The position numbers were made by a program, and so were the translations under genes. A DNA stretch of 32,000 nt from contig CAZPMK010000011.1 in NCBI GenBank assembly GCA_964587915.1, forward strand, positions 7,310 through 39,309, given 5' to 3'. Shown here one piece after another: positions 9,320 to 31,538 of the stretch; position 1 is the stretch's first letter, and the number at the start of each line of letters is the position of its first letter. The stretch comes from an uncultured Clostridium sp. (GTDB lineage Bacteria; Bacillota; Clostridia; Oscillospirales; Acutalibacteraceae). The notes beneath the pieces were generated by a model. That model was not told the DNA's origin, searched no databases, and was given only the letters and a program-made list of their open reading frames with translations.

Positions 9320-9988
9320 ATGGATTTGAACATTAAAACAGCAGAGCTGTTTGACCTTACGCATACAGCGGCGGGGGAGTATCTTGCGAATTTTGAATAT
9401 CCGTGGGAGGCTCTCGGCGGCATAAAAGAGATGATTAAAAATCTCGGCAAAAGTCTTGACAAGAACGAATATAACGAAATCGACGAAAATGTTTGGGTAC
9501 ACAAAACGGCACGCATAGCCGATACCGCCTTTATAGGTGCTCCGTGCATAATCGGCACCGAGACCGAGGTGCGTCACTGTGCATTCATAAGGGGCTCGGC
9601 TCTTATCGGAAGCGGCTGCGTTATCGGAAATTCCGTTGAAGTTAAAAATGCAATTATTTTTGACAGCGTACAGGTGCCGCATTTTAACTATGTCGGTGAC
9701 AGCATTCTCGGCTACCGCTCACACATGGGTGCAGGCTCGGTAACTTCCAATGTTAAGTCGGATAAAACACTTGTCCGTGTTAAAATCGGTGATGAAACAA
9801 TCGAAACAGGCTTAAAAAAATTCGGTGCAATGCTCGGCGATTTTGTCGAGGTTGGCTGTAATTCCGTGCTCAATCCCGGCACGGTAATCGGCAGAAATAC
9901 CAATATTTATCCGCTTTCATGCGTCAGAGGAGTTGTTGAAGCGGACAGCATTTTCAAAACAGGCGGAGTCACCGTCAAAAAGCATTGA
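9320..9988 (+). CDS. Left-handed beta-helix (hexapeptide-repeat) protein resembling the GlmU C-terminal acetyltransferase domain or a sugar-nucleotidyltransferase LbH tail
   Basis: 222 aa with successive hexapeptide turns (IGAPCIIGTETEV, IRGSALIGSGCVIGNSVEV, VGDSILGYRSHMGAGSV, VEVGCNSVLNPGTVIG). There is no nucleotidyltransferase domain. The start could instead be the TTG at 9326, which has better SD spacing. Confidence 0.65.
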   Translation: MDLNIKTAELFDLTHTAAGEYLANFEYPWEALGGIKEMIKNLGKSLDKNEYNEIDENVWVHKTARIADTAFIGAPCIIGTETEVRHCAFIRGSALIGSGCVIGNSVEVKNAIIFDSVQVPHFNYVGDSILGYRSHMGAGSVTSNVKSDKTLVRVKIGDETIETGLKKFGAMLGDFVEVGCNSVLNPGTVIGRNTNIYPLSCVRGVVEADSIFKTGGVTVKKH

Positions 9989-10023
9989 TTTATTATGAAC
10001 AATACGGAGAAAAGAGGTTAACT

Positions 10024-17906: not shown

Positions 17907-20018
17907 TCATTCCGCTTCATCGATCAAGCCGTAATATCTTCCGAACCAATAGGGAAGAAGATAACTGCTCGGTGACTGTGCCATGCCGGGTCGTCCGCTG
18001 TTGACCCTGTACGGGTTGCTGTCGTAATTTGAAAGTCCTCTTTCGTCAACCGCAAGAGCCTTGAGAAGCTGTTTGCCACCGCCCCATTTTTCTTGAACGG
18101 TATCATAAACAAGGTCTTTCCTTTTTGAATTGAGCATGGCGTAATTGATATAGTCAATCGGCAGGTCACGAAGTACCTGAACCGCGGTATCGAGGTCGCA
18201 TACATCATCGGTGAACGCACCGTACATCAAATTCCAAAGAACACAGTTCTCCGAACGCTCATATTCCCAATGGTGTCTCATTCCCATGAGTATATACGAA
18301 CGGATGAACGGGTCTTTCTCGATACGGAGAATCGTTGCGGAGCAAAGGAAAGCAAGATTGTCGTCAATATGCGTAATCCTGCCGTCATCCTTTTTGTGCT
18401 GAGCGGCGTTGAGGAGATAGTGCTCCTTTGTTGCAAGACGCATGAATTCCGTGCGGTATTTTTCGTCGCCCGACATATGATAAGCAACATCGAGGAACGT
18501 GAGAATTTCAAGGGAATTAACGCATTTTTCCCAAAGCCACATACTGTTTCCGTTCAGCTCTGCGGGATCCCAGCACGCCCAGGTGGTGGGCAGACCGTCA
18601 ACATCGCAAAGACGGTAATGATTTTCAAGAATGTGATCTACTATGTTGCATATGATTTCGCGGATCATTTCTTTTTCTTTTTCATCGGCGCAAAGGTCGT
18701 AGTAGAGGGAGAAGCCGAAGAAATGCCCGGTCATCTCGTCACTCGAGGTCTCACCGAGCCATTCGCATGAGCCGTCGGGAGCCTTGTGCCATTCCGCACC
18801 GTCAATTTGCATATCAAGATTTTTACCGTAATTGTCATCGCCTTCAAATCTGACGGCACGAGCGGTGAAGCCTTTGATACCGCTGACCTTTGTGAGAAAA
18901 GCGGTTGCGTTGATACTGCGGCGAGCCGCCTCGAGAACCTTTTTATCGCCTGTTACGGCATAGCAATAGCAAAGAGCGGCGATGTATGTATGTGTCCAAA
19001 GTCCGTCGTTGTCGGTTATACGGGGCTTACCGGTTGAAATGTCACGGTTTACAACATTTTTTACATCGGTGATATACCCGAGGGAGCGGATATAATATTT
19101 TTCCGCATAGTCAAAAAAGTAGTCAGCTTTTTCTTTCAAGGTCATTTTGCTTTCGCCGATTAAGGATACTCCCGAATCGGTGGCGGTCCAAATACCTTTG
19201 TCGGTAATGAGTGCGGAATTTACCTTTTCCTCACATACCCAGCGTGTTGCGGGCAGATGTTTTGCTTTGCCGTTCTCGATTATGACAATACCGGCTTCCG
19301 TTGCAAGAACAGCTTTGCCGTCATCGGAAAAATCAATGCCGTATATTTCTTCGGCGGGAAGTGCGGCGATTTCCTTGTGACCGTACCAGCCGCAGCCGTT
19401 GTCATATATGTAAGCACCCTTGTCCGTTCCAAGCCAAAGGAAACCGAGCTTTTTATCAAAGGCGGCACAGTTTATTTTGAGTTCGGGCATGGTGCTGTGT
19501 TCGGGATAAATGCACATCCAATGTTTTCTCTTGCCGGCAAAAACAAGAAGTGCTCTGTCGGAAAAAGCAACGATTCTGCCGCAGCCGCAGGCAAGACCGT
19601 TTGCGGGAGCTTCGTTCTCAAGATAGCGTACAAAACTGTCATTTTCAAGGACATAGAGAATTTCAGGAGTGATAACAAAAATCCTGTCTTCTCCGCTGAT
19701 TCCCGTTATATCTTCATTGAACACCTGAAATTCACGAATGAAACCGTTCTCAATTACATATAAAACCGACGAAGCCGAAAAGAAAATTCTGCCGTCGATT
19801 GAGGTAAAGATATGGCTGACGGGGGAGCAGGAAAACGAACCGAAGGAGCCGTCGGGCTTTGTATAGCTCAGACCGCAATCCGTTCCTATATAAACCGTTC
19901 CGTCGGGTGCTTCGGCGAGACAAAGTGCTTTGCTCGATATTAAGCCGTTTTCGGCGGTGAATACCTTACAAGTGCGTTGGGCGTATGTGTTTGATAAATA
20001 ATTTCCTTTTCTGTTCAT
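17907..20018 (-). CDS. Hypothetical 703-aa protein with N-terminal beta-propeller-like repeats and a C-terminal helical (alpha/alpha-toroid-like) domain
   Basis: GGAG SD is present and there is no signal peptide. The first ~290 aa carry repeated xDGxxYIGTDxGLxx-type blades (DGTVYIGTDCGLSY, FLWLGTDKGAYIY, KAVLATEAGIVII, GIWTATDSGVSLI). The remaining ~400 aa are rich in Trp, Tyr and His and helix-like (YIAALCYCYAVTGDKK, WACWDP, WLWEKCVNSLE). The domain calls are made by eye only. Confidence 0.6.
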   Translation of the reverse strand: MNRKGNYLSNTYAQRTCKVFTAENGLISSKALCLAEAPDGTVYIGTDCGLSYTKPDGSFGSFSCSPVSHIFTSIDGRIFFSASSVLYVIENGFIREFQVFNEDITGISGEDRIFVITPEILYVLENDSFVRYLENEAPANGLACGCGRIVAFSDRALLVFAGKRKHWMCIYPEHSTMPELKINCAAFDKKLGFLWLGTDKGAYIYDNGCGWYGHKEIAALPAEEIYGIDFSDDGKAVLATEAGIVIIENGKAKHLPATRWVCEEKVNSALITDKGIWTATDSGVSLIGESKMTLKEKADYFFDYAEKYYIRSLGYITDVKNVVNRDISTGKPRITDNDGLWTHTYIAALCYCYAVTGDKKVLEAARRSINATAFLTKVSGIKGFTARAVRFEGDDNYGKNLDMQIDGAEWHKAPDGSCEWLGETSSDEMTGHFFGFSLYYDLCADEKEKEMIREIICNIVDHILENHYRLCDVDGLPTTWACWDPAELNGNSMWLWEKCVNSLEILTFLDVAYHMSGDEKYRTEFMRLATKEHYLLNAAQHKKDDGRITHIDDNLAFLCSATILRIEKDPFIRSYILMGMRHHWEYERSENCVLWNLMYGAFTDDVCDLDTAVQVLRDLPIDYINYAMLNSKRKDLVYDTVQEKWGGGKQLLKALAVDERGLSNYDSNPYRVNSGRPGMAQSPSSYLLPYWFGRYYGLIDEAE

Positions 20019-20036: not shown

Positions 20037-20675
20037 TTAGAATACTGTTATGCAGGTTTGCAGATAATTACTTGTTCCCGTTTCTTTAACGGTGAGCATA
20101 TTGTTTCCGAGCTCGCACGATGACGGCACGGTGAATACCAAGGTTGCGATTCCGACTGAATCGGTTTTGATTTGCTCCGAGAGCTTTATTTCGTTCTTTA
20201 ACCCTTTGGTGCAAAACGATGCGGTAAATTCCTTGTTCGGAGTACCCATTATCGTAATGCTCGCTTGCTTGCCGCGGGCTACGGGACTTGTCTTGCTGAG
20301 AATTGACATTCCCTGCGACTTTTCGGGAACGGTCACGTTATTCTTTGTTTCGGAAGGTACATTGACCTTTGTTACTTCAGTCTTGTTCATCTTTGTTACC
20401 GCCGCCGTGGATTTTTCAGTGCGTGCGGTGCTTTCTTGTGATTTTGCCGTATCGGAAGCTGCTTTTTCGGATACGGGAGCCTTTGTCACGTTTTCTTTTT
20501 CGGAGACGGAGGAATTTGTTTTTTCGGTATCATAGGTTGATGTAGTGCCGTCAATCGCCGTCGTTTCGGCAGTGTCAGAGGATGCTTTTGAAATTTCATT
20601 GCCTTTTTCGCTTGTACAAGCGGCAAGACTGACAAAAGCAAGTGTCAGCACGAAGCATATTATTCGTTTTAACAT
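20037..20675 (-). CDS. Lipoprotein with a Ser/Thr/Lys/Glu-rich linker and a C-terminal beta-rich domain
   Basis: Signal peptide with lipobox SLAA-C, about 110 aa of low-complexity linker, then about 80 aa of alternating beta-type sequence (ASITIMGTPNKEFTASF...IATLVFTVPSSCELG). GAGGTG SD lies 8 nt upstream. Confidence 0.7.
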   Translation of the reverse strand: MLKRIICFVLTLAFVSLAACTSEKGNEISKASSDTAETTAIDGTTSTYDTEKTNSSVSEKENVTKAPVSEKAASDTAKSQESTARTEKSTAAVTKMNKTEVTKVNVPSETKNNVTVPEKSQGMSILSKTSPVARGKQASITIMGTPNKEFTASFCTKGLKNEIKLSEQIKTDSVGIATLVFTVPSSCELGNNMLTVKETGTSNYLQTCITVF

Positions 20676-20687
20676 AACAATAACACC

Positions 20688-21368
20688 TCAAATTTTGATT
20701 GATATTTCACCCGATGAAAGCACTTTTACGCTTGAGTCGGGAAGCCTAACCTTTAGATTGCAGTCGTTGTTTATACCGAGTGCAACGGCGGTGAAAGGTA
20801 TGCCGTTTTGAACAAACGAAATATCTCTGCCGAGAAAAAAGAGCCGTTTTTCATATTCGGTGCAAATGAAAGAATCGTTCGGATTATCTGCATATTTCAA
20901 GAGCTTTTCGGCGATTGCATCGGAAAGCACGTCTTTCGGCAAATCGAGATTTATGCTTCCTGCCGCCGTGAGCTGTTCGGGAAATTCGTCGGTCGTAAGA
21001 TTTATTCCTATTCCCACGGAAATATACTCTTTTCCGCCCTCCAAAAAATGCTCGCAGAGAATACCGCACACTTTTTTACCGTCAAGAAAAATATCATTTA
21101 CCCATTTGATTCCGAGATTTTCAACGCCGAAATCTTCAAGTGTCTCGCATACCGCAACTGCGGCGGCGGGGGTAATGAGTCCGAGCGGTCTATCGGGCGA
21201 AAAAACCAAGGTCATATATAATCCCGTGCTTTTCGGAGAAAAAAAGCTCCTGCCCTGTCTGCCTCTGCCGCTTGTTTGTGCATCGGCGGTTATAAGGCAG
21301 GGGAGCGGCAAATCCGCAGCACTTCGTCTTGCATATGAATTTGTTGAGTCGATAATTTCAAAATGCAA
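20688..21368 (-). CDS. birA: Biotin--[acetyl-CoA-carboxylase] ligase, class I (no HTH domain)
   Basis: IDSTN, the biotin loop SGRGRQGRSF, GIKWVNDI, and a C-terminal SH3-like tail. The only in-frame start after the upstream stop is the TTG at 21368. Confidence 0.85.
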   Translation of the reverse strand: MHFEIIDSTNSYARRSAADLPLPCLITADAQTSGRGRQGRSFFSPKSTGLYMTLVFSPDRPLGLITPAAAVAVCETLEDFGVENLGIKWVNDIFLDGKKVCGILCEHFLEGGKEYISVGIGINLTTDEFPEQLTAAGSINLDLPKDVLSDAIAEKLLKYADNPNDSFICTEYEKRLFFLGRDISFVQNGIPFTAVALGINNDCNLKVRLPDSSVKVLSSGEISIKI

Positions 21369-21426
21369 TTTGTTTAACCGATCCGTAGCACTTCACCTCG
21401 ATAAAAGCCTGAGATTCTACTTAAAA

Positions 21427-21455
21427 AGTATACAATAATAAAAAAGATATGTCAA
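21427..21455 (-). promoter_or_regulatory. Candidate sigma-A promoter of the birA operon
   Basis: On the minus strand: TTGACA (21455-21450), 17 nt, TATACT (21432-21427). Confidence 0.6.
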
Positions 21456-21470
21456 CCTAAATTATATATA

Positions 21471-21499
21471 TTGACACATGCCCTTAAAAAGTGTAAAAT
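21471..21499 (+). promoter_or_regulatory. Candidate sigma-A promoter of the glycyl-radical operon
   Basis: TTGACA (21471-21476), 17 nt, TAAAAT (21494-21499). It sits 15 nt from the divergent birA -35 box. Confidence 0.65.
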
Positions 21500-21536
21500 T
21501 AAGCTGTACAATTTTTGAAAAAGGAGGGCGGCTTTT

Positions 21537-22241
21537 GTGCTTGTGCTCCGAAAGGGCTTCAACTATTCTCAGGACGGACCCGGAAACCGTCTTGTTTACC
21601 ACCTTCAGGGATGCAATTTTTCGTGCAAATGGTGCTCAAATGCAGACAGCATTCCGAAAACCAATCCGAATGCACGAGAGTATACCTCGGATGAGCTTTT
21701 TGACGAGATAATACGCAGTCGAATGATGTTCTTTGACGGCGGCGGGGTTACATTTACGGGCGGTGAATGCACACTTTGGCATTCCGAGCTTTTGCCGCTT
21801 TTCAAAAGGCTTCGCGAAAATAATATCGGCGTTGCAATTGAAACCAACGCATCGAGTGTTCACCTTCCCGAGCTTGCAGAGTACATTGATCATCTCATAA
21901 TTGATTTAAAACATTACGATGAGTACGAACATAAAAAATGGGTCGGTGCTTCTCTCGAACAAACGAAAAAGAACATAGAATTTTTCCTTTCAAGCGGCAA
22001 AGAGATTCATATCAGAATCCCCGTCATTGGCGGAGTGAATGCAAATCCCGACGGCTTTGTGCGATATTTTCGGCAGTTTAATACCGAAAAAGCGGATTTT
22101 GAATTTCTTGCGTATCACGAATTCGGCAAGGATAAGTGGCAGGGAAAATACGAAATGAAGAACGCCTTTGTTTCGCCCGAAACCATGGCGGAATTTGAGA
22201 AAAATTTTACCGAAAACGGTTTTAAGGTCATTAAGACATAA
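21537..22241 (+). CDS. Glycyl-radical enzyme activating protein (radical SAM, PflA-size)
   Basis: GTG start 7 nt after AAAGGAGGG. DGPGNRLVYHLQGCNFSCKWCSN carries the CX3CX2C cluster motif in the typical GRE-activase context. GGGVTFTGGE is the SAM-binding GGE motif. At 234 aa with only four Cys in total, it has no ferredoxin-like insert. Confidence 0.9.
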   Translation: MLVLRKGFNYSQDGPGNRLVYHLQGCNFSCKWCSNADSIPKTNPNAREYTSDELFDEIIRSRMMFFDGGGVTFTGGECTLWHSELLPLFKRLRENNIGVAIETNASSVHLPELAEYIDHLIIDLKHYDEYEHKKWVGASLEQTKKNIEFFLSSGKEIHIRIPVIGGVNANPDGFVRYFRQFNTEKADFEFLAYHEFGKDKWQGKYEMKNAFVSPETMAEFEKNFTENGFKVIKT

Positions 22242-22253
22242 GGAGATGCGGTT

Positions 22254-24578
22254 ATGACAAATATTCTTGACAGCAAACGTATAACAGAAATGGCAAAAAA
22301 GCATTTTGCCGAAAAGAGAGCGGGAAAGAGGCTTGACGGCTGGTTTATCGCAAAAGAAAAGGAGCTTGAGCTTTCCGAAAAATATGCGGACAAAAAAGAA
22401 GAAGTCAAAAAGGCTCTTATTTTGAGAGACATTGCCGAGACACTTCCTTTGTATCTTACCGATTCACAGATTTTTGCAGGTACTCAGGACGATGCCTTTG
22501 CGAGAAGCTATGCCTTGATAAATCCTGCTTTTAAGGTTGAGGAATTCAGCGGCTACTGCGATCCTACCGCAGTTTTCGGTGATATCGAACCGAATGACGA
22601 ATTTACCGCAGAGCGTATCAATGCTGCAAGAGAACAATTCTCAAAGACGGAATATTCCGAAAAGCTCAAAGCTGTTTACGGCGAAAACGAGTGCTATACA
22701 AAAGAGGTAATCTTCTTTTTTGAACAGGTAACCGGACATCTTATTCCCGATGTTCGTTTTGCGATAAAACACGGCATAGCCGAAATGAAAAATCTTATTA
22801 AGGATAAAGACGGCGACGGCTACAGAGCTTTTGAAATTGCTCTTGAAAGTGCGGTAATATTTGCAAACCGTTATGCCGATATCGCACATGAGCAGATGAA
22901 ATCCGCTTCCCCCGAAAGGCGTACACAGCTTGAGCTTATGGAAAAAACTCTGCGTAAGGTTCCCGAATACGGAGCGGAAAATCTTTATGAGGCAATTCAG
23001 TCCTTTATGCTGATATGGCAGGTAATGTGCCTCGAACAGACACCCAACCCGTTCGCTTTTTCCGTTGGAAATGCCGACAGAATTTTTGAGCCGTACAGAA
23101 ACGGTCTTGACCGTGAGACAGCGGCGGCACTTTTGAAGCATCTTCTTGTATTCTTCAATGTTGCAGACAGAAGCTGGGCGATTTCTCAGGACTTGATTGT
23201 CGGCGGCAGAGACCTTGAAGGCAATGACCTTACAAACGAAACAACGTATGCATTGCTTGATGCGTATTACGATATGAATTTACCTCAGCCCATACTTTCC
23301 GTAAAGCTCCATAAGAATACACCCGCAAAGCTGTATGAAGAAATGGGCAGATTCCTTTTCAGTCCCGGTGTGCTCACGCCGTCGTTCTTCAATGACGATT
23401 CACTTTTTGCGGTGCTTTCGGCTCACGGCGTTGAGGATAAAGACCTTGAGGATATCGCCGTTGCAGGCTGTCAGGAGCCGCTCATAATGGGCAAGGATAA
23501 CGGAAATACAACCAACACATGGCTCAATCTTCCTAAAATTCTCGAAATGACACTTACGGGCGGAGTTTCAACCGTCACCGGTGAAAAATTGGTTGATATT
23601 GAACCCTGCAAGCTCGAAAATGTCCGTGAAGAATTTTATAAGAACGTAAAGCTCTTTGCGGATGCCATGGCAAAGGCGGGAAACGGCGTATCATCTGCCG
23701 TTTCAACACAGCGAGTACCGTTCCTTTCATGCCTTATGGGAGGACTTGAAAACGGTATTGATGCGAGAGATACCGAAAGACAGGGTACAAAATACAACGG
23801 AAGCGGCTGCCTTATTCACGGCGTTTCCGTTATTGCGGACAGCTTTTCGGCGATTGATAAGCTGCTCAGCGAAAGACCCGAGGATGCAGACCGTCTTGTT
23901 GACGCACTCAAAGCGAATTTTGAGGGCTATGACGAATTGCACGAATTTCTCCTCTCAGCCGATAAGTTCGGCAATAATATTGAGAGTGTGGACAACGAAG
24001 CGGCACAGGTTGCTTCAAAGGTTGCGGATATCGTCGCCGGAGAGAAAAACTATCTCGGCAATCCGTTCCGTCCCGATTTCAGTTCACCCTCCACGCATTT
24101 GCTTTACGGCTATTGGGTAGGAGCAACTCCCGACGGCAGAGGCTCAAGAGATATGCTCGGATACGGTGTTGACCCGCTCTACGGCAGTGCCGAAAACGGT
24201 CTCGGCTTCCGTATGCTGTCAAATATGAAGCTCCCGTTTGAAAAAATGAACGGCGGATATGCTTCGCATCTCGGAATAGACCCCAAATATTTCAAGTCTG
24301 CCACATACGAAGAAAAGGGCATTGAATTCAGAGATAAGGTTATCGCTCCGCTTTTCTTCAATGAGCTTAAAGAGGGCGTTTCACCGTTCTATCTTTATGT
24401 CAACGTTACTACCGCCGAAATACTCAGAAAGGTTCTTGCGGAGCCGAAAAAATATGCTCCGAGCGGTGTGTACATAATGCGTATTCACGGAACGTTCGTC
24501 AACTTTCTTGATTTGTCTCCCGCAATTCAGCAGGATATCATAACAAGACTTGACCCCGCTTCAACCGCTCTTTGCTGA
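22254..24578 (+). CDS. Glycyl-radical enzyme, PFL-like/eliminase-type, substrate unknown
   Basis: 774 aa. The thiyl loop is AVAGCQEP (Cys406 with Glu408; tgt at 23469-23471). The GATPDGR block is present. The C-terminal glycyl loop is VYIMRIHGTFVNFLDLSPAIQQDIITRL, collinear with RVAGYSAYF..L....Q.DII.R of known GREs (Gly746; gga at 24489-24491). Confidence 0.88.
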   Translation: MTNILDSKRITEMAKKHFAEKRAGKRLDGWFIAKEKELELSEKYADKKEEVKKALILRDIAETLPLYLTDSQIFAGTQDDAFARSYALINPAFKVEEFSGYCDPTAVFGDIEPNDEFTAERINAAREQFSKTEYSEKLKAVYGENECYTKEVIFFFEQVTGHLIPDVRFAIKHGIAEMKNLIKDKDGDGYRAFEIALESAVIFANRYADIAHEQMKSASPERRTQLELMEKTLRKVPEYGAENLYEAIQSFMLIWQVMCLEQTPNPFAFSVGNADRIFEPYRNGLDRETAAALLKHLLVFFNVADRSWAISQDLIVGGRDLEGNDLTNETTYALLDAYYDMNLPQPILSVKLHKNTPAKLYEEMGRFLFSPGVLTPSFFNDDSLFAVLSAHGVEDKDLEDIAVAGCQEPLIMGKDNGNTTNTWLNLPKILEMTLTGGVSTVTGEKLVDIEPCKLENVREEFYKNVKLFADAMAKAGNGVSSAVSTQRVPFLSCLMGGLENGIDARDTERQGTKYNGSGCLIHGVSVIADSFSAIDKLLSERPEDADRLVDALKANFEGYDELHEFLLSADKFGNNIESVDNEAAQVASKVADIVAGEKNYLGNPFRPDFSSPSTHLLYGYWVGATPDGRGSRDMLGYGVDPLYGSAENGLGFRMLSNMKLPFEKMNGGYASHLGIDPKYFKSATYEEKGIEFRDKVIAPLFFNELKEGVSPFYLYVNVTTAEILRKVLAEPKKYAPSGVYIMRIHGTFVNFLDLSPAIQQDIITRLDPASTALC

Positions 24579-24586
24579 GGTGAAAA

Positions 24587-25876
24587 ATGAAAATAATCGG
24601 AATCGACATCGGAACGACAAGTATATGTGCCCTTGAAGCGGACGGCGAGACGGGCAGTATCATAAAGAGTCTTTCATACCCGAACAAAGCCTTCATTCAA
24701 GGGAAAATGTCCTTTGAGAAATTGCAGGATCCCGCCGTTATAATGAGCACCGTTGAACGCCTGCTTTCAAGCCTTGATTTGAGCAACGCGGCGGCAATCG
24801 GCTTTTCGGGTCAGATGCACGGAATACTTTATATTGACAAAAACGGCAATGCCGTAAGTCCGCTGTATACTTGGCAGGACGAACGGGGAGCACAGCTTTA
24901 TACCGACGGCAAAAGCTACGCCGAAGTCCTCGGCTGCTTCCCCGGCTACGGACTTGCAACTGATATGTATAATGAAAAAAACGGCTTGATACCCGACGAG
25001 GCCGTAACACTCTGTACCGTTGCGGATTATGCGGCGATGCGTCTTTGCGGGGAGGCCTCTCCGCTTGTACACATCACCAATGCCGCAAGCCTCGGTTGCT
25101 TTGATATCGAAAAATCCCGATTTAAGTGCGATAATCCGAGACTTCCCAAGGTGGTTTCCGATTTTGAAACAGTCGGAAAATTCAAGGGTATTCCCGTTTG
25201 TGTTGCCGTGGGCGACAATCAAGCGAGCTTCATCGGTTCGGTAAAATCGTCAAATGCGGCACTTATAAACGTCGGAACAGGCTCACAGATATCACGACTT
25301 ACCGACAATCCGAATTGCAAGGGCGTTGAAAAAAGACCCTTTGACGGAAAAAGATATCTTGCCGCAGGCTGTTCCCTTTGCGGAGGCAGAGCCTTTGCAA
25401 TGGTTGAAAAACTTTTCCGCGAAGCGGTAAAGGAGACTGCGGGCGAATGCGAATCCTTTTATCCCGTTCTCGACAGACTGCTTTCCGTCAAAGAAAATAC
25501 CGACCTTTCCGCTGACTGCCGTTTTTGCGGAACGAGAGATGAGCCGATGCTCAGAGGCGGACTTTTCGGTATTTCCGAAAGTAATTTCACTGTCTCGGAT
25601 ATCGCCCTTGCCGTTCTTGTCGGCATGACGAACGAGCTGTACGATATGTATGCTCTTTCCGGAGGCGGCGCAGATGAAATAGTATGCTCCGGAAACGGTG
25701 TGCGTAAGAATCCTGCATTGCAGCGGGTCATCAGGCAAATTTTCAATTCCGAAATAAAAATACCTCTTTACGAGGAAGAAGCGGCTTACGGAGCGGCACT
25801 TTCGGCAGGTACGGCTTGCGGAATGTTTTCCGATATTGATGCCGCAAGAGAAAGAATTAGATATACGGAGGCATAA
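24587..25876 (+). CDS. FGGY-family carbohydrate kinase, sedoheptulokinase-like subgroup
   Basis: 429 aa with GIDIGTTS, GFSGQMHGILY, YTWQDERG, VGDNQASFIG, NVGTGSQ, and a C-terminal GNGVRKNPALQRVI...AYGAAL. The order and spacing of these blocks parallel SHPK-type kinases. Confidence 0.75.
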   Translation: MKIIGIDIGTTSICALEADGETGSIIKSLSYPNKAFIQGKMSFEKLQDPAVIMSTVERLLSSLDLSNAAAIGFSGQMHGILYIDKNGNAVSPLYTWQDERGAQLYTDGKSYAEVLGCFPGYGLATDMYNEKNGLIPDEAVTLCTVADYAAMRLCGEASPLVHITNAASLGCFDIEKSRFKCDNPRLPKVVSDFETVGKFKGIPVCVAVGDNQASFIGSVKSSNAALINVGTGSQISRLTDNPNCKGVEKRPFDGKRYLAAGCSLCGGRAFAMVEKLFREAVKETAGECESFYPVLDRLLSVKENTDLSADCRFCGTRDEPMLRGGLFGISESNFTVSDIALAVLVGMTNELYDMYALSGGGADEIVCSGNGVRKNPALQRVIRQIFNSEIKIPLYEEEAAYGAALSAGTACGMFSDIDAARERIRYTEA

Positions 25877-25878
25877 CT

Positions 25879-26910
25879 GTGTTTTACGAAAAACCCGTAT
25901 TTTTTGAAAAGAACCGAGTGTTCAGAGTATATACCGGAGGAAAGCTGTTTGCCGATTTCTTCGGCGACGCCTCAACCGACGGCAATTATCCCGAAGAATG
26001 GGTTGCTTCGAGCGTTCATGCTCTCAACGAGGGAAGCACCGACCCGTATGAGGGAATATCAAAAATCGAGGGCGAGGAGCTGTATTTGAGCGATGCCCTT
26101 GTAAAATACCGTGTCGAGATTCTCGGTGCCGGAGAGGATATCGGCATACTCACAAAAATTCTCGACAGTGCTATACGCCTGCCTGTTCAGGCACACCCCG
26201 ATAAAGAATTTTCCGCAAAATATTTCTCATCCAAATACGGCAAGGAGGAAAGCTGGATAATCCTTGCTACCCGTCCCGATGCAAAGATATTCTACGGCTT
26301 CAAGGACGGTGTGACTCTCGAGGAATTTGAGCGTGCCATTGATGCGAGCGAAAACGGCGGCAACGAAATGGAAAACCTGCTTAAAACGATAGATGTCAAG
26401 GCGGGTGATGTCATATACATTCCCGCAAAACTCGTTCACGCCATCGGCAGGGGTTGCTTGCTTCTCGAGGTTCAGGAGCCTACCGACTTTACCATACAGC
26501 CCGAGCGTTGGTGCGGAGAATATAAATTATCCGATAACGAAATGTATCTCGGACTCAGCCGCAAAAATGCTCTTGAATGCTTTGACATGAAAAAAAGCTA
26601 CCCCGCTCCGCTTAAACCGAAAACGGTTTTGGACGAAAACGGCGTGCTTTACGAATCAATTATCGACAGCGATATTACCGACAGCTTTTCGGTCGGCATG
26701 ATAACCTTGACGGGCGGAAAATTTACTCTCGGCAGGGGAGCGGCAATATATGTTGCTCTTGACGGTGCGGGAACGATAAACGGCGAAAATTATGATAGAA
26801 AAATCAAAAAAGGCGATTACTTCATGATGCCCGCTGCTGCGGCAGGCGGCTTCACGGTAAGCGGAAATATAAAACTTGCAGAGTGCTTTGCAGTAGAGCA
26901 GAAAGGATGA
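25879..26910 (+). CDS. Class I phosphomannose-isomerase-like cupin isomerase
   Basis: GTG start 8 nt after GGAGG. PEEWVAS, the zinc-ligand context VQAHPDKE, ESWIIL, and LVHAIGRGCLLLEVQEPTD together form the type I PMI pattern. 343 aa. Confidence 0.75.
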   Translation: MFYEKPVFFEKNRVFRVYTGGKLFADFFGDASTDGNYPEEWVASSVHALNEGSTDPYEGISKIEGEELYLSDALVKYRVEILGAGEDIGILTKILDSAIRLPVQAHPDKEFSAKYFSSKYGKEESWIILATRPDAKIFYGFKDGVTLEEFERAIDASENGGNEMENLLKTIDVKAGDVIYIPAKLVHAIGRGCLLLEVQEPTDFTIQPERWCGEYKLSDNEMYLGLSRKNALECFDMKKSYPAPLKPKTVLDENGVLYESIIDSDITDSFSVGMITLTGGKFTLGRGAAIYVALDGAGTINGENYDRKIKKGDYFMMPAAAAGGFTVSGNIKLAECFAVEQKG

Positions 26911-26914
26911 TACC

Positions 26915-27544
26915 ATGAAAACAATCAAAATTATTTCACTTGTTTTTGCATTGCTGATAGCTTTTTCGGCTTGCGGAACGGACACGGCGGAAAACACGAC
27001 GGAAATTGATGTCCCTGATACCACCGTTGTTTCATCGTCAAACAGAACAAAGGTAAAATTCACCATGGAAAACGGCGGCAGCTTTGTTATGGAGCTTTAT
27101 CCCGAGTACGCTCCCGATACCTGCGATAATTTTACAAAGCTCGTTTCTTCCGGCTTTTATGACGGCTTGACCTTCCACAGAGTCGTTGACGGCTTTATGG
27201 CACAGGGCGGCGATGCAACTGGAACGGAAAAAGAAAACGATGCACAGCCGATACCCGGTGAATTTGCTTCAAACGGATTTTCTGCCAATACTCTTTCACA
27301 TGAGAGAGGCGTTGTATCCATGGCAAGAACAAGCGACCCCAACTCAGCATCGTCTCAGTTCTTCATTTGCTACGATGACTCCTGCAAGGCTCTTGACGGA
27401 AGCTATGCCGCTTTCGCAAAGGTTATCGAGGGCATGGAGACGGTTGATGATTTCTGCAATGTTGAGCGTGTTTATAATTCCATGGGAGAGCTTGCAACTC
27501 CGAAAGAGCCGTTGCGTATAGCAAAGGCGGAGGTGGTTTTCTGA
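26915..27544 (+). CDS. Cyclophilin-type peptidyl-prolyl cis-trans isomerase, lipoprotein
   Basis: Signal peptide with lipobox AFSA-C, then FHRVVDGFMAQGGD and SMARTSDPNSASSQFFI, which are cyclophilin signatures. Confidence 0.88.
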   Translation: MKTIKIISLVFALLIAFSACGTDTAENTTEIDVPDTTVVSSSNRTKVKFTMENGGSFVMELYPEYAPDTCDNFTKLVSSGFYDGLTFHRVVDGFMAQGGDATGTEKENDAQPIPGEFASNGFSANTLSHERGVVSMARTSDPNSASSQFFICYDDSCKALDGSYAAFAKVIEGMETVDDFCNVERVYNSMGELATPKEPLRIAKAEVVF

Positions 27545-27933
27545 TGAACATTGTCACCTTCAGAGGCTTTCGTGCAACGGATATAGAATTTGCCAATCAT
27601 CACGAAAACGGTACACGCATTGAATTTGAAAACACATATTCATACAATGTTAAGTACGGCACGGATAATAATTGCGTGGGTGAATTTACCGTAGAGGTCA
27701 AGGATAAATCCGCACCCGAAAAATTCCGCATAAAAGCGGTGCTCCTCGGTTCATTCTCCTATGACCCGACTGTTAAAAAAGAGAAAATTCATATTGAGAG
27801 CTTTAAAGAGCTTTTTCCGTATGTGAGAGCAATGGTATCATCTCTCACCGTCAATGCGGGACTGCCGCCCGTAATATTGCCGGCACTCGATATCGAATCT
27901 CAAAGTATATATAAATTCGGCAAAAATTGCTGA
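27544..27933 (+). CDS. SecB-fold (protein-export chaperone SecB-like) protein
   Basis: 129 aa. Its ATG overlaps the cyclophilin TGA (TGATG), and GGAGGTG lies 9 nt upstream. FRATDIEF..., FRIKAVLLGSFSY and ELFPYVRAMVSSLTVNAGLPPVILPALD are collinear with E. coli SecB ([29 protein letters not shown]). Confidence 0.6.
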   Translation: MNIVTFRGFRATDIEFANHHENGTRIEFENTYSYNVKYGTDNNCVGEFTVEVKDKSAPEKFRIKAVLLGSFSYDPTVKKEKIHIESFKELFPYVRAMVSSLTVNAGLPPVILPALDIESQSIYKFGKNC

Positions 27934-27947
27934 GAAGGAGAAGCAAA

Positions 27948-29381
27948 ATGGATATAATGGATATTGCCTCAAAGGGCATCGTGGCTATCACAAGAAATTA
28001 CGGCAAAAAGGTTGCAAAAAAACAGGGCGAAGCTCCCGCAATTGAAAAGGTTGCTCCGTCAGTCATTTCCGGAAGCTGCTACCGTGTGGGCTTTTCAAGA
28101 GAGGAAATAATGCCGAACCTTGACGGCAGAACCTATTGGATAGCGGGTCACGGCTCGGGTCACAAGATGGAGGGTGTTCTCTCACCGGTGTATATCAGTG
28201 CCGTTTGGATTGACTGCGGCGGCGATGAGGGTATGCTCTGGCTGAGTGCCGATATAGTCGGCATGACGAGAATCGAGGTCAACAAGATTCGCTCCATGAT
28301 AATGGCATCCGATAAAATCAAGGGCTGTAAATGTATCAACATAAGCAGTACGCACAGCCATTCCGGCATAGATACTCTCGGCTATTGGGGCAAGCCCAAT
28401 CTTGTCAGCATTCCCTCCGACGGCAAGGACCCCGAATATATGGAAATGCTGATGAATAACGCCGTTAAGGTTGCAGAGGAAGCATACGCTTCAAGAAAGA
28501 GCGGAAAGCTCTATTCGGGCAGAATCTCGATTAAAGGCGGTCTTCTCGGAAAGAGAGACTTTGTTGATAAGCATGAGGTGCTGACCCGTCTGCGTTTTGC
28601 TCCCGAGGACGGCTCTGCCGAAACATGGTTAATCAACATAGGTGCTCATCCCAATTCGCTCGGCGGCGGAAACCGTATGCTCAGCGGCGAATTTCCGTAC
28701 TATATGCGTGAACAGATACTTGCCGACAACGGAGCAAATGTGCTCTTCTGCATCGGCGCAATAGGCGGCATGGATGCCGTAACTCTCGACGAAGAGGACA
28801 GAGTAAATTGCATCAAGCTCCAAGGCAAGCTCTTTGCACAGGCGGCGGAAAGCATTACAAATGACCGTGAGCTTAGCCCGCAGATAAAATATCTTCAGCA
28901 GCCGTTTTATCTTCCCGTCAGCAACTATGTTTTGACTCTGCTTGCGATTCGTCATGTAATGAGTTTTAAGGCGTATGCCTGCAAGGATAGCGATACAGGC
29001 GTTCAGATGATGACGGAAATGACCTATATGACCTTCGGAGACCAAAAACTCCTGCTTTTGCCGGGCGAAAACTTTGTTGATACCGTATACGGAAATTACC
29101 ATTCCGCAGAGGATTCCGCAACAGGCAAGGGTCCCGAAATAAATCCCGTGCCGCTTGCCGAAATTGCAGGTGACAGCGAGCTTATATCGTTCGGCGTAAC
29201 CAACGATATGACGGGCTATGTCGTTCCTCCCAATGATTTTATCCTCAATCCGACACAGCCGTATCTTAACGGATATAAGGACAGATTCGGAAAGAATCAC
29301 TATCACGAAACAAATTCAATGGGCTTTGGAGCACAAAAGGCAATTGCCGATGCATTTGCCGATGTCGTTTCAAGATTCTGA
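27948..29381 (+). CDS. Neutral/alkaline ceramidase N-terminal-domain-like hydrolase (cytosolic)
   Basis: I prefer the ATG at 27948 (AAGGAG 8 nt upstream) over the TTG at 27927. LSPVYISAVWIDCGG...LWLSADIVG...INISSTHSHSGIDTLGYWG resembles the ceramidase-family block ending in THTHSGPGG. No signal peptide. Confidence 0.55.
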   Translation: MDIMDIASKGIVAITRNYGKKVAKKQGEAPAIEKVAPSVISGSCYRVGFSREEIMPNLDGRTYWIAGHGSGHKMEGVLSPVYISAVWIDCGGDEGMLWLSADIVGMTRIEVNKIRSMIMASDKIKGCKCINISSTHSHSGIDTLGYWGKPNLVSIPSDGKDPEYMEMLMNNAVKVAEEAYASRKSGKLYSGRISIKGGLLGKRDFVDKHEVLTRLRFAPEDGSAETWLINIGAHPNSLGGGNRMLSGEFPYYMREQILADNGANVLFCIGAIGGMDAVTLDEEDRVNCIKLQGKLFAQAAESITNDRELSPQIKYLQQPFYLPVSNYVLTLLAIRHVMSFKAYACKDSDTGVQMMTEMTYMTFGDQKLLLLPGENFVDTVYGNYHSAEDSATGKGPEINPVPLAEIAGDSELISFGVTNDMTGYVVPPNDFILNPTQPYLNGYKDRFGKNHYHETNSMGFGAQKAIADAFADVVSRF

Positions 29382-29392
29382 GCATAAAAATT

Positions 29393-29425
29393 CTCCCCGC
29401 CGTCGAAAAGAGGCGGGGAGCTTTT
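29393..29425. terminator. Bidirectional rho-independent terminator between convergent genes
   Basis: CTCCCCGCC-(10 nt loop)-GGCGGGGAG followed by CTTTTG on the + strand. On the - strand the same stem is followed by AATTTTT. Confidence 0.8.
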
Positions 29426-29432
29426 GCATATA

Positions 29433-31388: not shown

Positions 31389-31420
31389 AAAAAGCCCTCC
31401 CTATAAAATAATACAACAGT

Positions 31421-31449
31421 AATATAACATATTTTTTATTGAAGTGCAA
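31421..31449 (-). promoter_or_regulatory. Candidate promoter of the GHL6-like gene
   Basis: On the minus strand: TTGCAC, 17 nt, then extended -10 TGtTATATT. Confidence 0.5.
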
Positions 31450-31456
31450 CAAGTAT

Positions 31457-31485
31457 TTGACTTGTGACGCGGATTGTGCTAAAGT
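31457..31485 (+). promoter_or_regulatory. Candidate promoter of the right-edge gene
   Basis: TTGACT (31457-31462), 17 nt, TGcTAAAGT (31477-31485). Confidence 0.5.
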
Positions 31486-31538
31486 TTTCTGCGAAAGTAA
31501 ATTAAAAAAACCGACACATTTTCGGAAAGCGTGAGTTT

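What the first reader, a model, noticed from the sequence alone, without database searches (positions are those of the whole stretch)
21471..26910. Orphan glycyl-radical enzyme module: activase + divergent GRE + sedoheptulokinase-like kinase + PMI-type isomerase
Four genes follow one consensus promoter with gaps of only 12, 8 and 2 nt. They encode a radical-SAM activase, a 774-aa GRE with an eliminase-type Cys-x-Glu thiyl loop (GCQEP), an FGGY kinase of the sedoheptulokinase subgroup, and a type I phosphomannose-isomerase-like cupin. None of the hallmark partners of characterised GRE systems is present. There are no microcompartment shell genes (choline or propanediol), no aldehyde or alcohol dehydrogenase, no sulfite or taurine genes, no P5C reductase (hydroxyproline), and no small decarboxylase subunits. 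A kinase plus an aldose/ketose isomerase suggests that the radical step acts on a sugar, polyol or anhydro-/deoxy-sugar, or on its phosphate ester. To my recollection, which I cannot verify here, E. coli PflD/YbiW-type GREs were recently assigned as 1,5-anhydrohexitol-6-phosphate dehydratases. That would be a precedent for sugar-phosphate GREs. This operon differs from that arrangement by using a soluble kinase instead of a PTS, adding a PMI-like isomerase, and lacking an adjacent aldolase. It may therefore encode a variant or new radical carbohydrate route.
Basis: partly seen in the sequence, partly recalled or inferred. Interest (0 to 1): 0.8.

Follow-up and report, generated by a model that had tools for sequence, protein, structure and literature searches.

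The report
Uncharacterised sugar-linked glycyl radical enzyme operon
A real four-gene operon encodes an intact radical enzyme from a widespread but unstudied clade, always partnered with a sugar kinase, so it probably marks an unknown oxygen-sensitive route for breaking down a fructose- or mannose-type sugar in gut and sediment anaerobes.

Summary
A near-consensus promoter (21471-21499) precedes four + strand genes separated by 12, 8 and 2 nt. They encode a radical-SAM activase, a 774-aa glycyl radical enzyme (GRE; GCQEP Cys loop, RIHG glycyl motif), an FGGY kinase and a PMI-like cupin.

The GRE belongs to no characterised family. It fails every NCBIfam cut-off and is 19-24% identical to all solved GREs, including PflD and YbiW.

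Its clade is large: 438 GTDB species, plus Bacteroidota, Spirochaetota, Caldatribacteriota-like and other Firmicutes contigs. The catalytic His, Cys and Glu are invariant in 160 sequences, and the glycyl-motif Gly in 158.

In 58 non-redundant loci, activase-GRE-FGGY is the conserved core (kinase in 48). The PMI-like cupin is an accessory (18/58). It is fixed in this window's Acutalibacteraceae lineage, often followed by a GH38 alpha-mannosidase.

Elsewhere the core sits in GH32 fructan-type PULs. It also occurs next to GH116, GH38, GH130, D-lyxose/mannose isomerase, polyol dehydrogenases, monosaccharide transporters and, rarely, an FSA-type aldolase.

I infer a radical C-O cleavage on a neutral fructo/manno-series sugar or anhydro-/polyol derivative. 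The substrate is unresolved.

Verdict: a new variant of a known kind and a good experimental target.

The parts
21471..21499 (+). Sigma-70-type promoter: TTGACA, 17-nt spacer, TAAAAT
   Evidence: Matches 11 of 12 consensus positions, tied for best in the scan of 20600-31500. Sequence read directly. A divergent promoter-like site for birA lies back-to-back at 21455-21427 on the - strand.
21537..22241 (+). GRE-activating radical-SAM enzyme, 234 aa, short form without a Cys-rich insert
   Evidence: Radical_SAM 2e-19 and Fer4_12. TIGR02494 PFLE_PFLC scores 145.8 bits, below its cut-off. The CNFSCKWC cluster motif is present. Alignment A6 shows that it lacks the roughly 55-aa 4-Cys insert kept by orthologues in other phyla. 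It is adjacent to the GRE in 47 of 58 non-redundant loci.
22254..24578 (+). Glycyl radical enzyme of an uncharacterised clade, 774 aa. Key residues: His162, Cys406-Gln407-Glu408, Arg743-Ile-His-Gly746
   Evidence: PFL-like 2.4e-102. No NCBIfam cut-off is reached. His162, Cys406, Gln407 and Glu408 are invariant in 160 family sequences; Gly746 is kept in 158. AF2 model has pLDDT 91.6 and pTM 0.93. The nearest folds are the glycerol and propanediol dehydratases (TM 0.84-0.86), then PflD (0.83).
24587..25876 (+). FGGY-family carbohydrate kinase, 429 aa, sedoheptulokinase/xylulokinase-like
   Evidence: FGGY_N 9e-14 and FGGY_C 9.1e-07, both above cut-off. The best NCBIfam hit is XylB at 91 bits, far below its cut-off. 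The best PDB hit is only 2.9e-07. Orthologues at 37-43% identity lie next to the GRE in Cellulosilyticum, Mangrovibacterium, Tannerellaceae and a spirochaete. NCBI names the Cellulosilyticum orthologue sedoheptulokinase.
25879..26910 (+). Type I phosphomannose-isomerase-like metal cupin, 343 aa
   Evidence: MPI_cupin_dom 1e-07. TIGR00218 manA scores 79.7 bits, below its 116.2 cut-off. Full-length match to B. subtilis PMI 1QWR at 2.2e-19, with the VQAHPD, GKEESW and VHA motifs aligned. Orthologues at 34-35% identity occur in L085 and L087. It is present in 18 of 58 non-redundant loci.

Best explanation
The cassette is one transcription unit. It encodes a catalytically competent GRE of a previously uncharacterised clade, with the signature GCQEP Cys loop and R-I-H-G glycyl motif, together with its own activase.

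Shown:
- The activase-GRE-FGGY kinase trio is a conserved functional module in several bacterial phyla.
- The module sits in carbohydrate-utilisation loci.

Inferred mechanism:
- The activase installs a radical on Gly746.
- The Cys406 thiyl radical abstracts the hydrogen from a carbinol carbon of a neutral, hexose-sized sugar.
- Glu408 deprotonates that hydroxyl, and His162 protonates the oxygen on the neighbouring carbon.
- That oxygen leaves as water or as the ring oxygen. This is the chemistry of the diol dehydratases and of the YbiW/PflD ring-opening isomerases.
- The product is a deoxy-keto sugar. The FGGY kinase phosphorylates its terminal hydroxyl, or phosphorylates the substrate beforehand.

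Inferred substrate: it most likely belongs to the D-fructose/D-mannose series. Candidates are a fructopyranose-like ring such as 1,5-anhydro-D-mannitol or fructose itself, or the corresponding polyol.

Inferred role of the cupin: the PMI-like cupin, or in one relative a D-lyxose/mannose isomerase, connects the manno-aldose to the fructo-ketose branch. In related genomes it takes mannose released by the neighbouring GH38 alpha-mannosidase.

The enzyme works like a C-x-E eliminase/isomerase GRE, but it is not a member of any characterised family.
For: The unit is real: spacing, promoter and domains are confirmed.

The enzyme is intact.
- His162, Cys406 and Glu408 are invariant in 160 sequences; Gly746 is kept in 158.
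- The model is confident and has a GRE fold.

It is distinct from known GREs.
- All NCBIfam scores are far below cut-off.
- It is 24% identical to PflD and 21% to YbiW.
- Representative search: the clade's own relatives score 1115, 911 and 655 bits, a sister clade 300-400 bits, and generic GREs about 200-230 bits.

The module is conserved.
- The four genes persist in about 68 of 80 Acutalibacteraceae/Clostridia loci, including those with unrelated flanks.
- In 58 non-redundant loci, FGGY occurs in 48, the activase in 47 and the PMI-like cupin in 18.
- The FGGY pairing extends to the P0125 clade and to the sister clade.

The context is carbohydrate use.
- SusC/SusD-GH32 PULs carry activase-GRE-FGGY and an MFS transporter.
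- GH38 lies downstream in Acutalibacteraceae, and independently beside a 45%-identical clade.
- GH116-FGGY-GRE is tightly coupled.
- A spirochaete has GRE-GntR-FGGY-PMI-GH130.
- L104 has activase-GRE-FGGY-D-lyxose isomerase-aldose epimerase-PfkB, beside a ROK regulator and a ribose-type ABC transporter.
- Zn-ADH and mannitol dehydrogenase-family genes occur, as does an FSA-type aldolase 31 nt after the kinase in L150.

There is a precedent for sugar-acting C-x-E GREs: YbiW and PflD (PMC13450708).
Against: No substrate was or could be tested here.

The accessory genes are each present in a minority of loci, and sugar islands often mix pathways.

A radical route for a sugar as easy to metabolise as fructose or mannose has no obvious energetic rationale.

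A genuine mannose-6-phosphate isomerase cannot act on the deoxy-keto products expected from this chemistry. It must therefore be a feeder enzyme, or have a different substrate.

The order of the kinase and GRE steps is unknown.

The tendency of the PMI-like gene to be absent from GH32 loci (0 of 6 against 18 of 52) is not significant. One-sided p is about 0.09 by my own arithmetic.

The original paper on YbiW/PflD (Ma et al., JACS 2024) is not in the held library. I could not check whether it already mentions this clade.
Confidence: 0.55

Rival explanations
1. This is a soluble-kinase version of the known 'radical glycolysis'. 1,5-Anhydroglucitol or 1,5-anhydromannitol is imported by an ABC or MFS transporter and phosphorylated by the FGGY kinase instead of a PTS. 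The GRE, a functional analogue of YbiW/PflD, then opens the ring to give 1-deoxyfructose-6-phosphate. A housekeeping or adjacent FSA-type aldolase cleaves that product.
For: There is a precedent: two separate GRE clades already perform this reaction (PMC13450708; PMC12441222). An FSA/TalC-type aldolase lies next to the module in L150 and L159. GFO/IDH/MocA and Zn-ADH genes nearby could be anhydrofructose reductases. No PTS genes were seen in any of the gene tables or recurrent neighbour clusters examined, so a kinase would be needed.
Against: The GRE is only 21-24% identical to YbiW and PflD and is no closer to them than to the diol dehydratases. The PMI-like isomerase, the D-lyxose isomerase and the mutarotases have no role, because anhydrohexitols lack a carbonyl and an anomeric centre. 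The GH32, GH38, GH116 and GH130 neighbours are unexplained. The aldolase is adjacent in only 2-3 of 58 loci.
Confidence: 0.2
2. The GRE is a polyol dehydratase, an enlarged glycerol-dehydratase-type enzyme. It converts a hexitol, pentitol or tetritol into a 1-deoxy-ketose, which the FGGY kinase phosphorylates. This gives fermenters a redox-neutral entry for reduced polyols.
For: The sister clade's best solved relative is glycerol dehydratase (505 bits), and the model's nearest folds are the glycerol and propanediol dehydratases. FGGY kinases typically act on polyols and open-chain-prone ketoses (own knowledge). Polyol dehydrogenase genes and ribose-type or CUT1 ABC transporters occur nearby.
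Against: This does not explain the PMI-like cupin (18 of 58 loci), the mutarotases or the glycoside hydrolases. Polyol dehydrogenases in the same loci would compete for the same substrate.
Confidence: 0.12
3. This is an ordinary short-chain diol dehydratase (glycerol or 1,2-propanediol) that merely sits beside unrelated mannose genes: a kinase, PMI and GH38.
For: It has the C-x-E motif and the conserved His shared with those enzymes. The top structural matches are GD and PD.
Against: The TIGR01774 score is 239 bits against a 678-bit cut-off. The loop that lies close to the substrate in those enzymes (own recollection) is deleted, and the neighbouring pocket motifs are replaced (alignment A1). 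There are no microcompartment, propanediol or aldehyde dehydrogenase genes. The GRE-FGGY adjacency is kept across phyla and in bare three-gene operons, which chance co-location does not explain.
Confidence: 0.04

Closest known systems
YbiW and PflD: 1,5-anhydroglucitol-6-phosphate and 1,5-anhydromannitol-6-phosphate C-O lyases/isomerases of E. coli and relatives
   Same: Both are PFL-like GREs with a C-x-E Cys loop, the conserved His and an adjacent activase. Both act in sugar metabolism and need a phosphorylation step. In a few family loci an FSA-type aldolase is adjacent, as with fsaA and fsaB in E. coli.
   Different: Identity is only 21-24%, and the PflD equivalog model scores 167 bits against a 1109-bit cut-off. 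The partner is a soluble FGGY kinase instead of a PTS. A PMI-like cupin and glycoside hydrolases are partners. The Cys loop reads GCQEP rather than GCVEL or GCIET, and the glycyl motif RIHG rather than RVAG. An 11-residue loop is deleted and 2 residues are inserted in pocket-forming segments.
B12-independent glycerol dehydratase (1R8W) and 1,2-propanediol dehydratase (5I2G, 9RCO)
   Same: These are the nearest folds (TM 0.84-0.86) and the best sequence matches among enzymes of known function (1.2e-54). They share the C-x-E motif and the general-acid His.
   Different: Identity is 22-24%. There is no microcompartment or downstream dehydrogenase. The pocket loops are remodelled. The genomic context is carbohydrate use rather than short-chain diol use.
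Archaeoglobus fulgidus PFL2 (2F3O), a GRE of debated function
   Same: It is the best PDB sequence hit (4.6e-55).
   Different: It has GCVEI and RVAG motifs, is only 22% identical to the model over the structural alignment, and its function is itself unknown (PMC13450708).
E. coli mannosylglycerate system (MngB, a GH38, followed by phosphomannose isomerase). This comparison rests on my own knowledge.
   Same: A GH38 hydrolase is combined with a phosphomannose-isomerase-type step in relatives of this window.
   Different: That system has no GRE and uses a PTS. Here GH38 is absent from the window itself.

Membership tests
Glycyl radical enzyme superfamily (PFL-like) | PFL-like ten-stranded barrel domain | tested here: met
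   PF02901 at 2.4e-102 over residues 27-619. AF2 model has pLDDT 91.6, with TM 0.80-0.86 to solved GREs.
Glycyl radical enzyme superfamily (PFL-like) | C-terminal glycyl radical motif (RVxG-aromatic) with the radical-bearing Gly | tested here: met
   The variant R743-I-H-G746-T aligns with RVAG of 2F3O, PflD and YbiW. Gly is kept in 158 of 160 family sequences. Pfam PF01228 itself gives no hit at E <= 0.001; only the GrcA model TIGR04365 hits weakly, at 1.9e-4.
Glycyl radical enzyme superfamily (PFL-like) | Catalytic Cys on the Cys loop and a cognate radical-SAM activase | tested here: met
   Cys406 is invariant. The activase, with a CX3CX2C motif, lies 12 nt upstream and is adjacent in 47 of 58 loci.
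Glycyl radical enzyme superfamily (PFL-like) | Formation of a stable glycyl radical | not testable with these tools
   Needs anaerobic activation and EPR.
C-x-E GRE 1,2-eliminases/isomerases | Glu two residues after the catalytic Cys, plus a general-acid His (GD His164 position) | tested here: met
   C406-Q407-E408 and His162 are invariant across 38 diverse GREs, including generic eliminases, and across 160 family members. Their roles are taken from PMC13450708.
YbiW/PflD anhydrohexitol-6-phosphate isomerases | Sequence membership (PflD equivalog NF007437; close similarity to YbiW or PflD) | tested here: not met
   167.5 bits against a cut-off of 1109. Identity to E. coli PflD and YbiW is 24% and 21%.
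YbiW/PflD anhydrohexitol-6-phosphate isomerases | Neighbourhood of PTS components and an FSA-type aldolase | tested here: not met
   The E. coli loci carry frwCBD/ptsA/fsaB and fsaA. The window has no PTS or FSA gene. FSA is adjacent in only L150, L154 and L159.
YbiW/PflD anhydrohexitol-6-phosphate isomerases | Conversion of AG6P or AM6P to 1-deoxyfructose-6-phosphate | not testable with these tools
   Needs an enzyme assay.
B12-independent glycerol/diol dehydratases | Membership of the TIGR01774 PFL2-3 subfamily; microcompartment or diol-pathway neighbours | tested here: not met
   239 bits against a cut-off of 678. No shell-protein or dehydrogenase genes were found.
FGGY carbohydrate kinases | FGGY_N and FGGY_C domains | tested here: met
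   52.1 bits (cut-off 28.8) and 29.3 bits (cut-off 27).
Sedoheptulokinase subgroup of FGGY kinases | Assignment by a subgroup-specific model or by activity | tested here: inconclusive
   None of the FGGY equivalog models that hit is for sedoheptulokinase, and none reaches its cut-off. The only support is NCBI's name for a 43%-identical orthologue.
Type I phosphomannose isomerase | manA equivalog score; the Gln/His/Glu/His metal-site motifs | tested here: inconclusive
   TIGR00218 scores 79.7 bits, below the 116.2 cut-off. The alignment to 1QWR is full-length, and QAHPD, GKEESW and VHA align with the PMI motifs. The roles of the metal ligands are recalled from my own knowledge, not tested.

The most novel reading that the evidence does not exclude
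The GRE acts directly on a mainstream dietary hexose: D-fructose in its pyranose form, or a fructose phosphate. Mannose would feed in through the PMI-like or lyxose-isomerase cupins.

The reaction would be a YbiW/PflD-type radical ring-opening/dehydration to a deoxy-diketo-hexose, which the FGGY kinase traps. This would be a radical, oxygen-sensitive alternative entry of fructan- and mannan-derived sugar into central metabolism. It would be encoded inside GH32 PULs and beside GH38, GH116 and GH130 genes.

PflD's substrate, 1,5-anhydro-D-mannitol 6-phosphate, is by the C2 symmetry of mannitol the 2-deoxy analogue of fructopyranose 1-phosphate (my own chemical reasoning). The chemistry is therefore plausible.
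Probability: 0.17. Interest if true: 0.9.

Novelty: new variant of a known kind. Interest (0 to 1): 0.72.

Why it matters
GREs carry out reactions that anaerobes cannot otherwise perform, and each newly assigned clade has revealed an overlooked gut or sediment pathway. Examples are choline to TMA, hydroxyproline, isethionate and anhydroglucitol.

This clade is abundant. It occurs in 438 GTDB species and in many rumen, human-gut, digester and sediment contigs. It is strongly conserved: the GRE is about 83% identical where neighbouring genes are 50-65%. It is also wired into fructan- and mannoside-type sugar loci.

Assigning its substrate would add a second, independent radical route in carbohydrate catabolism. 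It would also give a function to genes now annotated 'hypothetical' or 'pyruvate formate-lyase family'.

The conserved gene trio and a cultured host (Cellulosilyticum sp. I15G10I2) make the question directly testable.

Tried and rejected
- Filing the GRE under a known family. No NCBIfam equivalog or subfamily cut-off is met for the query, for distant clade members or for the sister clade. The structure search gave no preferred relative.

- Literature. Eight full-text searches found only the YbiW/PflD work. No paper links this clade, an FGGY kinase, GH32 PULs or lyxose isomerase to a GRE. The primary paper (Ma et al., JACS 2024, 146:26187) is not held.

- Treating the downstream PPIase, SecB-like and 484-aa genes, or the upstream birA and 703-aa genes, as part of the module. 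Rejected, because they are syntenic only in close relatives and vanish while the four-gene cassette persists.

- The arginine-biosynthesis genes upstream, and the rubrerythrin-fusion gene inserted after the PMI-like gene in relatives. Both are unrelated housekeeping genes.

- Inferring a phosphate-binding site from alignments. Family-specific Arg276, Arg306, Arg505 and Arg653 were noted from the invariant-residue lists. Without model coordinates their position in the pocket cannot be judged, so this is inconclusive.

- Mutual exclusion of the PMI-like gene and GH32 (0 of 6 against 18 of 52 loci). Not significant.

- One Pfam call failed on wrong coordinates.

- Structure prediction for the kinase and the cupin was not attempted. 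Only single sequences were admissible, which usually gives poor models.

Full report
**1. Observation**

The window carries four + strand ORFs:
- 21537-22241, 234 aa, GTG start
- 22254-24578, 774 aa
- 24587-25876, 429 aa
- 25879-26910, 343 aa, GTG start

They are separated by 12, 8 and 2 nt. A TTGACA-17 nt-TAAAAT promoter-like site lies at 21471-21499. It matches 11 of 12 consensus positions, tied for best in the region. An AAAGGAGGG ribosome-binding site precedes the first start codon.

Pfam and NCBIfam identify the four products:
- a radical-SAM GRE activase with a CX3CX2C motif
- a PFL-like glycyl radical enzyme (2.4e-102)
- an FGGY kinase, with both domains above cut-off
- a cupin with the mannose-6-phosphate-isomerase cupin domain

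The cupin aligns over its full length to B. subtilis PMI 1QWR (2.2e-19). The QAHPD, GKEESW and VHA motifs are in register.

The GRE has the Cys loop GCQEP. Its C-terminal RIHG aligns with the RVAG glycyl motif of solved GREs.

The rest of the window is housekeeping plus a few glycosidase-like genes. There are no microcompartment, aldehyde or alcohol dehydrogenase, sulfite or P5C-reductase genes.

The + strand run continues after a 4-nt gap, with no terminator-like site at the 26910/26915 junction. The next genes are a lipoprotein cyclophilin, a SecB-like protein and a 484-aa protein. These are not co-conserved beyond close relatives.

**2. The GRE is intact but belongs to no characterised family**

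- NCBIfam: 239 bits against the PFL2-3 subfamily model (cut-off 678). It scores at most 176 bits against every equivalog, all with cut-offs of 1000 or more. These include hydroxyproline dehydratase, the sulfopropanediol dehydratases, PflD and CutC.
- Solved structures by sequence: best hits are A. fulgidus PFL2 (4.6e-55) and glycerol dehydratase (1.2e-54). PflD scores 1e-39 to 1e-45 and YbiW 4e-25.
- Structure: an AlphaFold model built on a 38-sequence alignment is confident (pLDDT 91.6, pTM 0.93). Foldseek places it about equally far from all eliminase- and isomerase-type GREs. Glycerol and propanediol dehydratases give TM 0.84-0.86, PflD 0.83 and YbiW 0.82, all at 19-24% identity.
- Search of 1.84 billion cluster representatives: the clade's own full-length relatives score 1115, 911 and 655 bits (64%, 55%, 44% identity). 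One 746-aa relative lacking the catalytic Cys scores 465. A sister clade scores 300-400 bits, and generic GREs about 200-230.

The clade and its sister share derived features in alignment A1:
- GCQEP instead of GCVEP
- R[IV]HG instead of RVAG
- a two-residue insertion (LEQxPNPYAFS)
- an 11-residue deletion before the SQN-GG strand
- STPSTH instead of S-x-S-x-x-V

From my recollection of GRE structures, these segments contribute pocket residues in glycerol dehydratase and CutC. The pocket therefore looks remodelled and probably enlarged.

Across 160 family sequences, His162 (the general-acid position of glycerol dehydratase), Cys406, Gln407 and Glu408 are invariant. Gly746 is kept in 158. This is a functional enzyme under strong constraint.

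**3. Distribution**

Family-specific peptide patterns found relatives in 438 GTDB species genomes. The best 80 are Acutalibacteraceae or Clostridia MAGs from ruminant, horse and human gut, at 75-93% identity.

More distant members (44-67% identity) occur in several other lineages and habitats:
- Cellulosilyticum sp. I15G10I2, an isolate
- Mangrovibacterium and Tannerellaceae (Bacteroidota)
- a spirochaete
- Caldatribacteriota-like contigs
- contigs from a range of environmental, sludge, animal and human-gut metagenomes

Public annotations read 'hypothetical protein' or 'pyruvate formate lyase family protein'.

**4. Conserved partners**

Within the 80 genome loci, the four-gene order activase-GRE-FGGY-PMI-like is kept in about 68. 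This includes loci L049-L080, whose flanks are entirely different.

In the closer loci (L003-L047), identities to the window proteins run about 80-84% for the GRE. The PMI-like protein runs 72-81%, the activase 59-70%, the kinase 56-64% and the neighbouring BirA 48-59%.

I then combined genome, contig and metagenome loci. I collapsed them to GRE groups below 85% identity and kept those with at least 6 kb of flank. That left 58 loci.

| Neighbour | Loci (of 58) |
|---|---|
| FGGY kinase | 48 |
| Activase | 47 |
| PMI-like cupin | 18 |
| GntR/periplasmic-binding-fold regulator | 9 |
| ROK protein | 7 |
| GH32 | 6 |
| GH38 | 5 |
| Ribose-type ABC transporter | 5 |
| Zn-dependent polyol-type dehydrogenase | 5 |

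Several loci are bare activase-GRE-FGGY operons.

The kinases next to the GRE in Cellulosilyticum, Mangrovibacterium, Tannerellaceae and the spirochaete are orthologues of the window kinase (37-43% identity). PMI-like orthologues (34-35%) occur in the spirochaete and in the Caldatribacteriota-like contig.

The more divergent P0125 and P0334 clades, and the sister clade, also pair the GRE with an FGGY kinase, though of other subfamilies.

The activase-GRE-FGGY trio is therefore the functional core. The PMI-like cupin is a frequent accessory that is fixed in this window's lineage.

**5. What the surroundings say**

- In eight of 20 more distant Acutalibacteraceae/Clostridia loci examined, a GH38 alpha-mannosidase immediately follows the cassette. 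In L071 it follows the GRE directly.
- An unrelated clade has GH116-FGGY-GRE with 3- and 2-nt gaps. A divergent activase-GH38-nucleotidyltransferase-GHMP kinase arm lies beside it (also 53).
- In Bacteroidota the trio sits inside SusC/SusD-GH32 PULs next to an MFS transporter. From my knowledge of Bacteroides fructan PULs, a fructokinase would be expected there.
- A spirochaete has GRE-GntR-FGGY-PMI-like-GH130.
- L104 has activase-GRE-FGGY-D-lyxose/mannose isomerase-aldose 1-epimerase-PfkB kinase as one tight operon. It lies beside a ROK regulator and a ribose-type ABC transporter.
- L133 adds a Zn-ADH and a mannitol-dehydrogenase-family gene.
- L150 has an FSA/TalC-type aldolase 31 nt after the kinase, and L159 has one nearby.

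The imported compound is thus a free, monosaccharide-sized carbohydrate.

The accessory enzymes are fructosidases, mannosidases, two kinds of manno-aldose/ketose isomerase, mutarotases and polyol dehydrogenases. They converge on the D-fructose/D-mannose series. Each accessory is in a minority of loci, so this is a lead and not a proof.

**6. Mechanism**

Shown: an intact C-x-E GRE with the conserved general-acid His, a dedicated activase and an obligate kinase partner.

Inferred from the established chemistry of this GRE class (PMC13450708):
- The thiyl radical abstracts the carbinol hydrogen.
- Glu deprotonates the hydroxyl.
- The oxygen on the adjacent carbon leaves as water or as a ring oxygen.
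- Hydrogen return gives a deoxy-carbonyl product.

The FGGY kinase resembles xylulo- and sedoheptulokinases only weakly. It would phosphorylate the terminal hydroxyl of the substrate or of the product.

Such chemistry cannot yield a 2-hydroxy-aldose. A PMI-type isomerase therefore most plausibly acts as a feeder, from manno-aldose to fructo-ketose, free or phosphorylated. It is unlikely to act on the GRE product.

PflD's substrate, 1,5-anhydro-D-mannitol-6-phosphate, is by the C2 symmetry of mannitol the 2-deoxy analogue of fructopyranose-1-phosphate (my own reasoning). A fructopyranose-like ring, either anhydromannitol or fructose itself, is thus a chemically coherent candidate.

I give the general explanation about 0.55. 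The specific readings follow:
- anhydrohexitol pathway with a soluble kinase: about 0.2
- direct action on fructose or a fructose phosphate: about 0.17 (counted inside the general explanation as its boldest form)
- polyol dehydration: about 0.12
- ordinary diol dehydratase: about 0.04

**7. Comparison with known systems and novelty**

The enzyme works like a C-x-E eliminase/isomerase GRE. It fails the tested membership criteria of YbiW/PflD (sequence and neighbourhood) and of the glycerol/diol dehydratases (subfamily score and neighbourhood).

A 2026 review of the superfamily lists no enzyme with these partners. It also notes that whole clades remain unassigned (PMC13450708).

Within the held literature I found nothing on this clade. 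The library is incomplete, and the key 2024 JACS paper could not be read.

I rate it a new variant of a known kind, with interest 0.72.

Noticed in passing
window 21537-22241; L083:9119-9988, L084:9108-10004, L086:9119-9988, L087:9117-9992: The activase of this window's lineage, and that of L085, lacks a roughly 55-aa insert. Orthologues in Cellulosilyticum, Bacteroidota and the spirochaete keep it. Their insert holds only four Cys (C...CxxC...C), enough for one auxiliary cluster rather than the two of PflC/YbiY-type activases.
   Followed up: partly
window 26915-29381 (+); L171:1628-3775 (-): A lipoprotein cyclophilin, a SecB-like protein and a 484-aa protein with a weak neutral-ceramidase match follow the cassette with a 4-nt gap and then overlapping starts. 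They are syntenic in 30-40 close relatives only. A clear 715-aa neutral-ceramidase homologue also lies beside the GH116-FGGY-GRE unit of a distant clade. This may be coincidence.
   Followed up: partly
protein P0130 (no locus): A 746-aa relative (39% identity) has GDE in place of GCQE on the Cys loop and RVPG at the glycyl motif. It is apparently a Cys-less, probably inactive paralogue.
   Followed up: no
alignment of 160 family GREs, column of Gly746: One sequence has Ala at the glycyl position and Asp at the preceding His. It could be an assembly error or an aminoacyl-radical-type variant of the kind reviewed in PMC13450708.
   Followed up: no
window 21427-21455 (-) and 20688-21368 (-): A second 11-of-12 promoter-like site (TTGACA-17-TATACT) points the other way towards birA, back-to-back with the cassette promoter. 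birA is the upstream neighbour in 40 of 80 related loci.
   Followed up: no
L008:14687-15901, L037 (same position): In many relatives a roughly 400-aa gene is inserted between the PMI-like gene and the cyclophilin. It appears to fuse a flavin-reductase-like domain, rubredoxin-type Cys motifs and a rubrerythrin-like domain. This reading is by eye from the sequence and was not run against Pfam.
   Followed up: no
window 9320-11409 (+) and 7513-9081 (-): A hexapeptide-repeat transferase-like ORF overlaps the start of a phosphoglucomutase/phosphomannomutase gene, and a sodium:solute symporter lies just upstream. All are about 10-14 kb from the cassette. No link to the cassette was established.
   Followed up: no
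window 17907-20018 (-) and 29433-31388 (-): A 703-aa protein with only a weak regulator-propeller match is syntenic in 40 relatives. A GHL6/GH42M-type putative glycosidase also flanks the cassette. The GH38 gene that follows the cassette in more distant relatives is absent from this window.
   Followed up: partly
L159:15098-21530 and L150:15557-19953: Two gut-metagenome loci carry the GRE module beside arrays of further FGGY kinases. These are interleaved with xylose-isomerase-like TIM-barrel proteins or an L-rhamnose isomerase, which suggests multi-sugar or polyol islands.
   Followed up: partly
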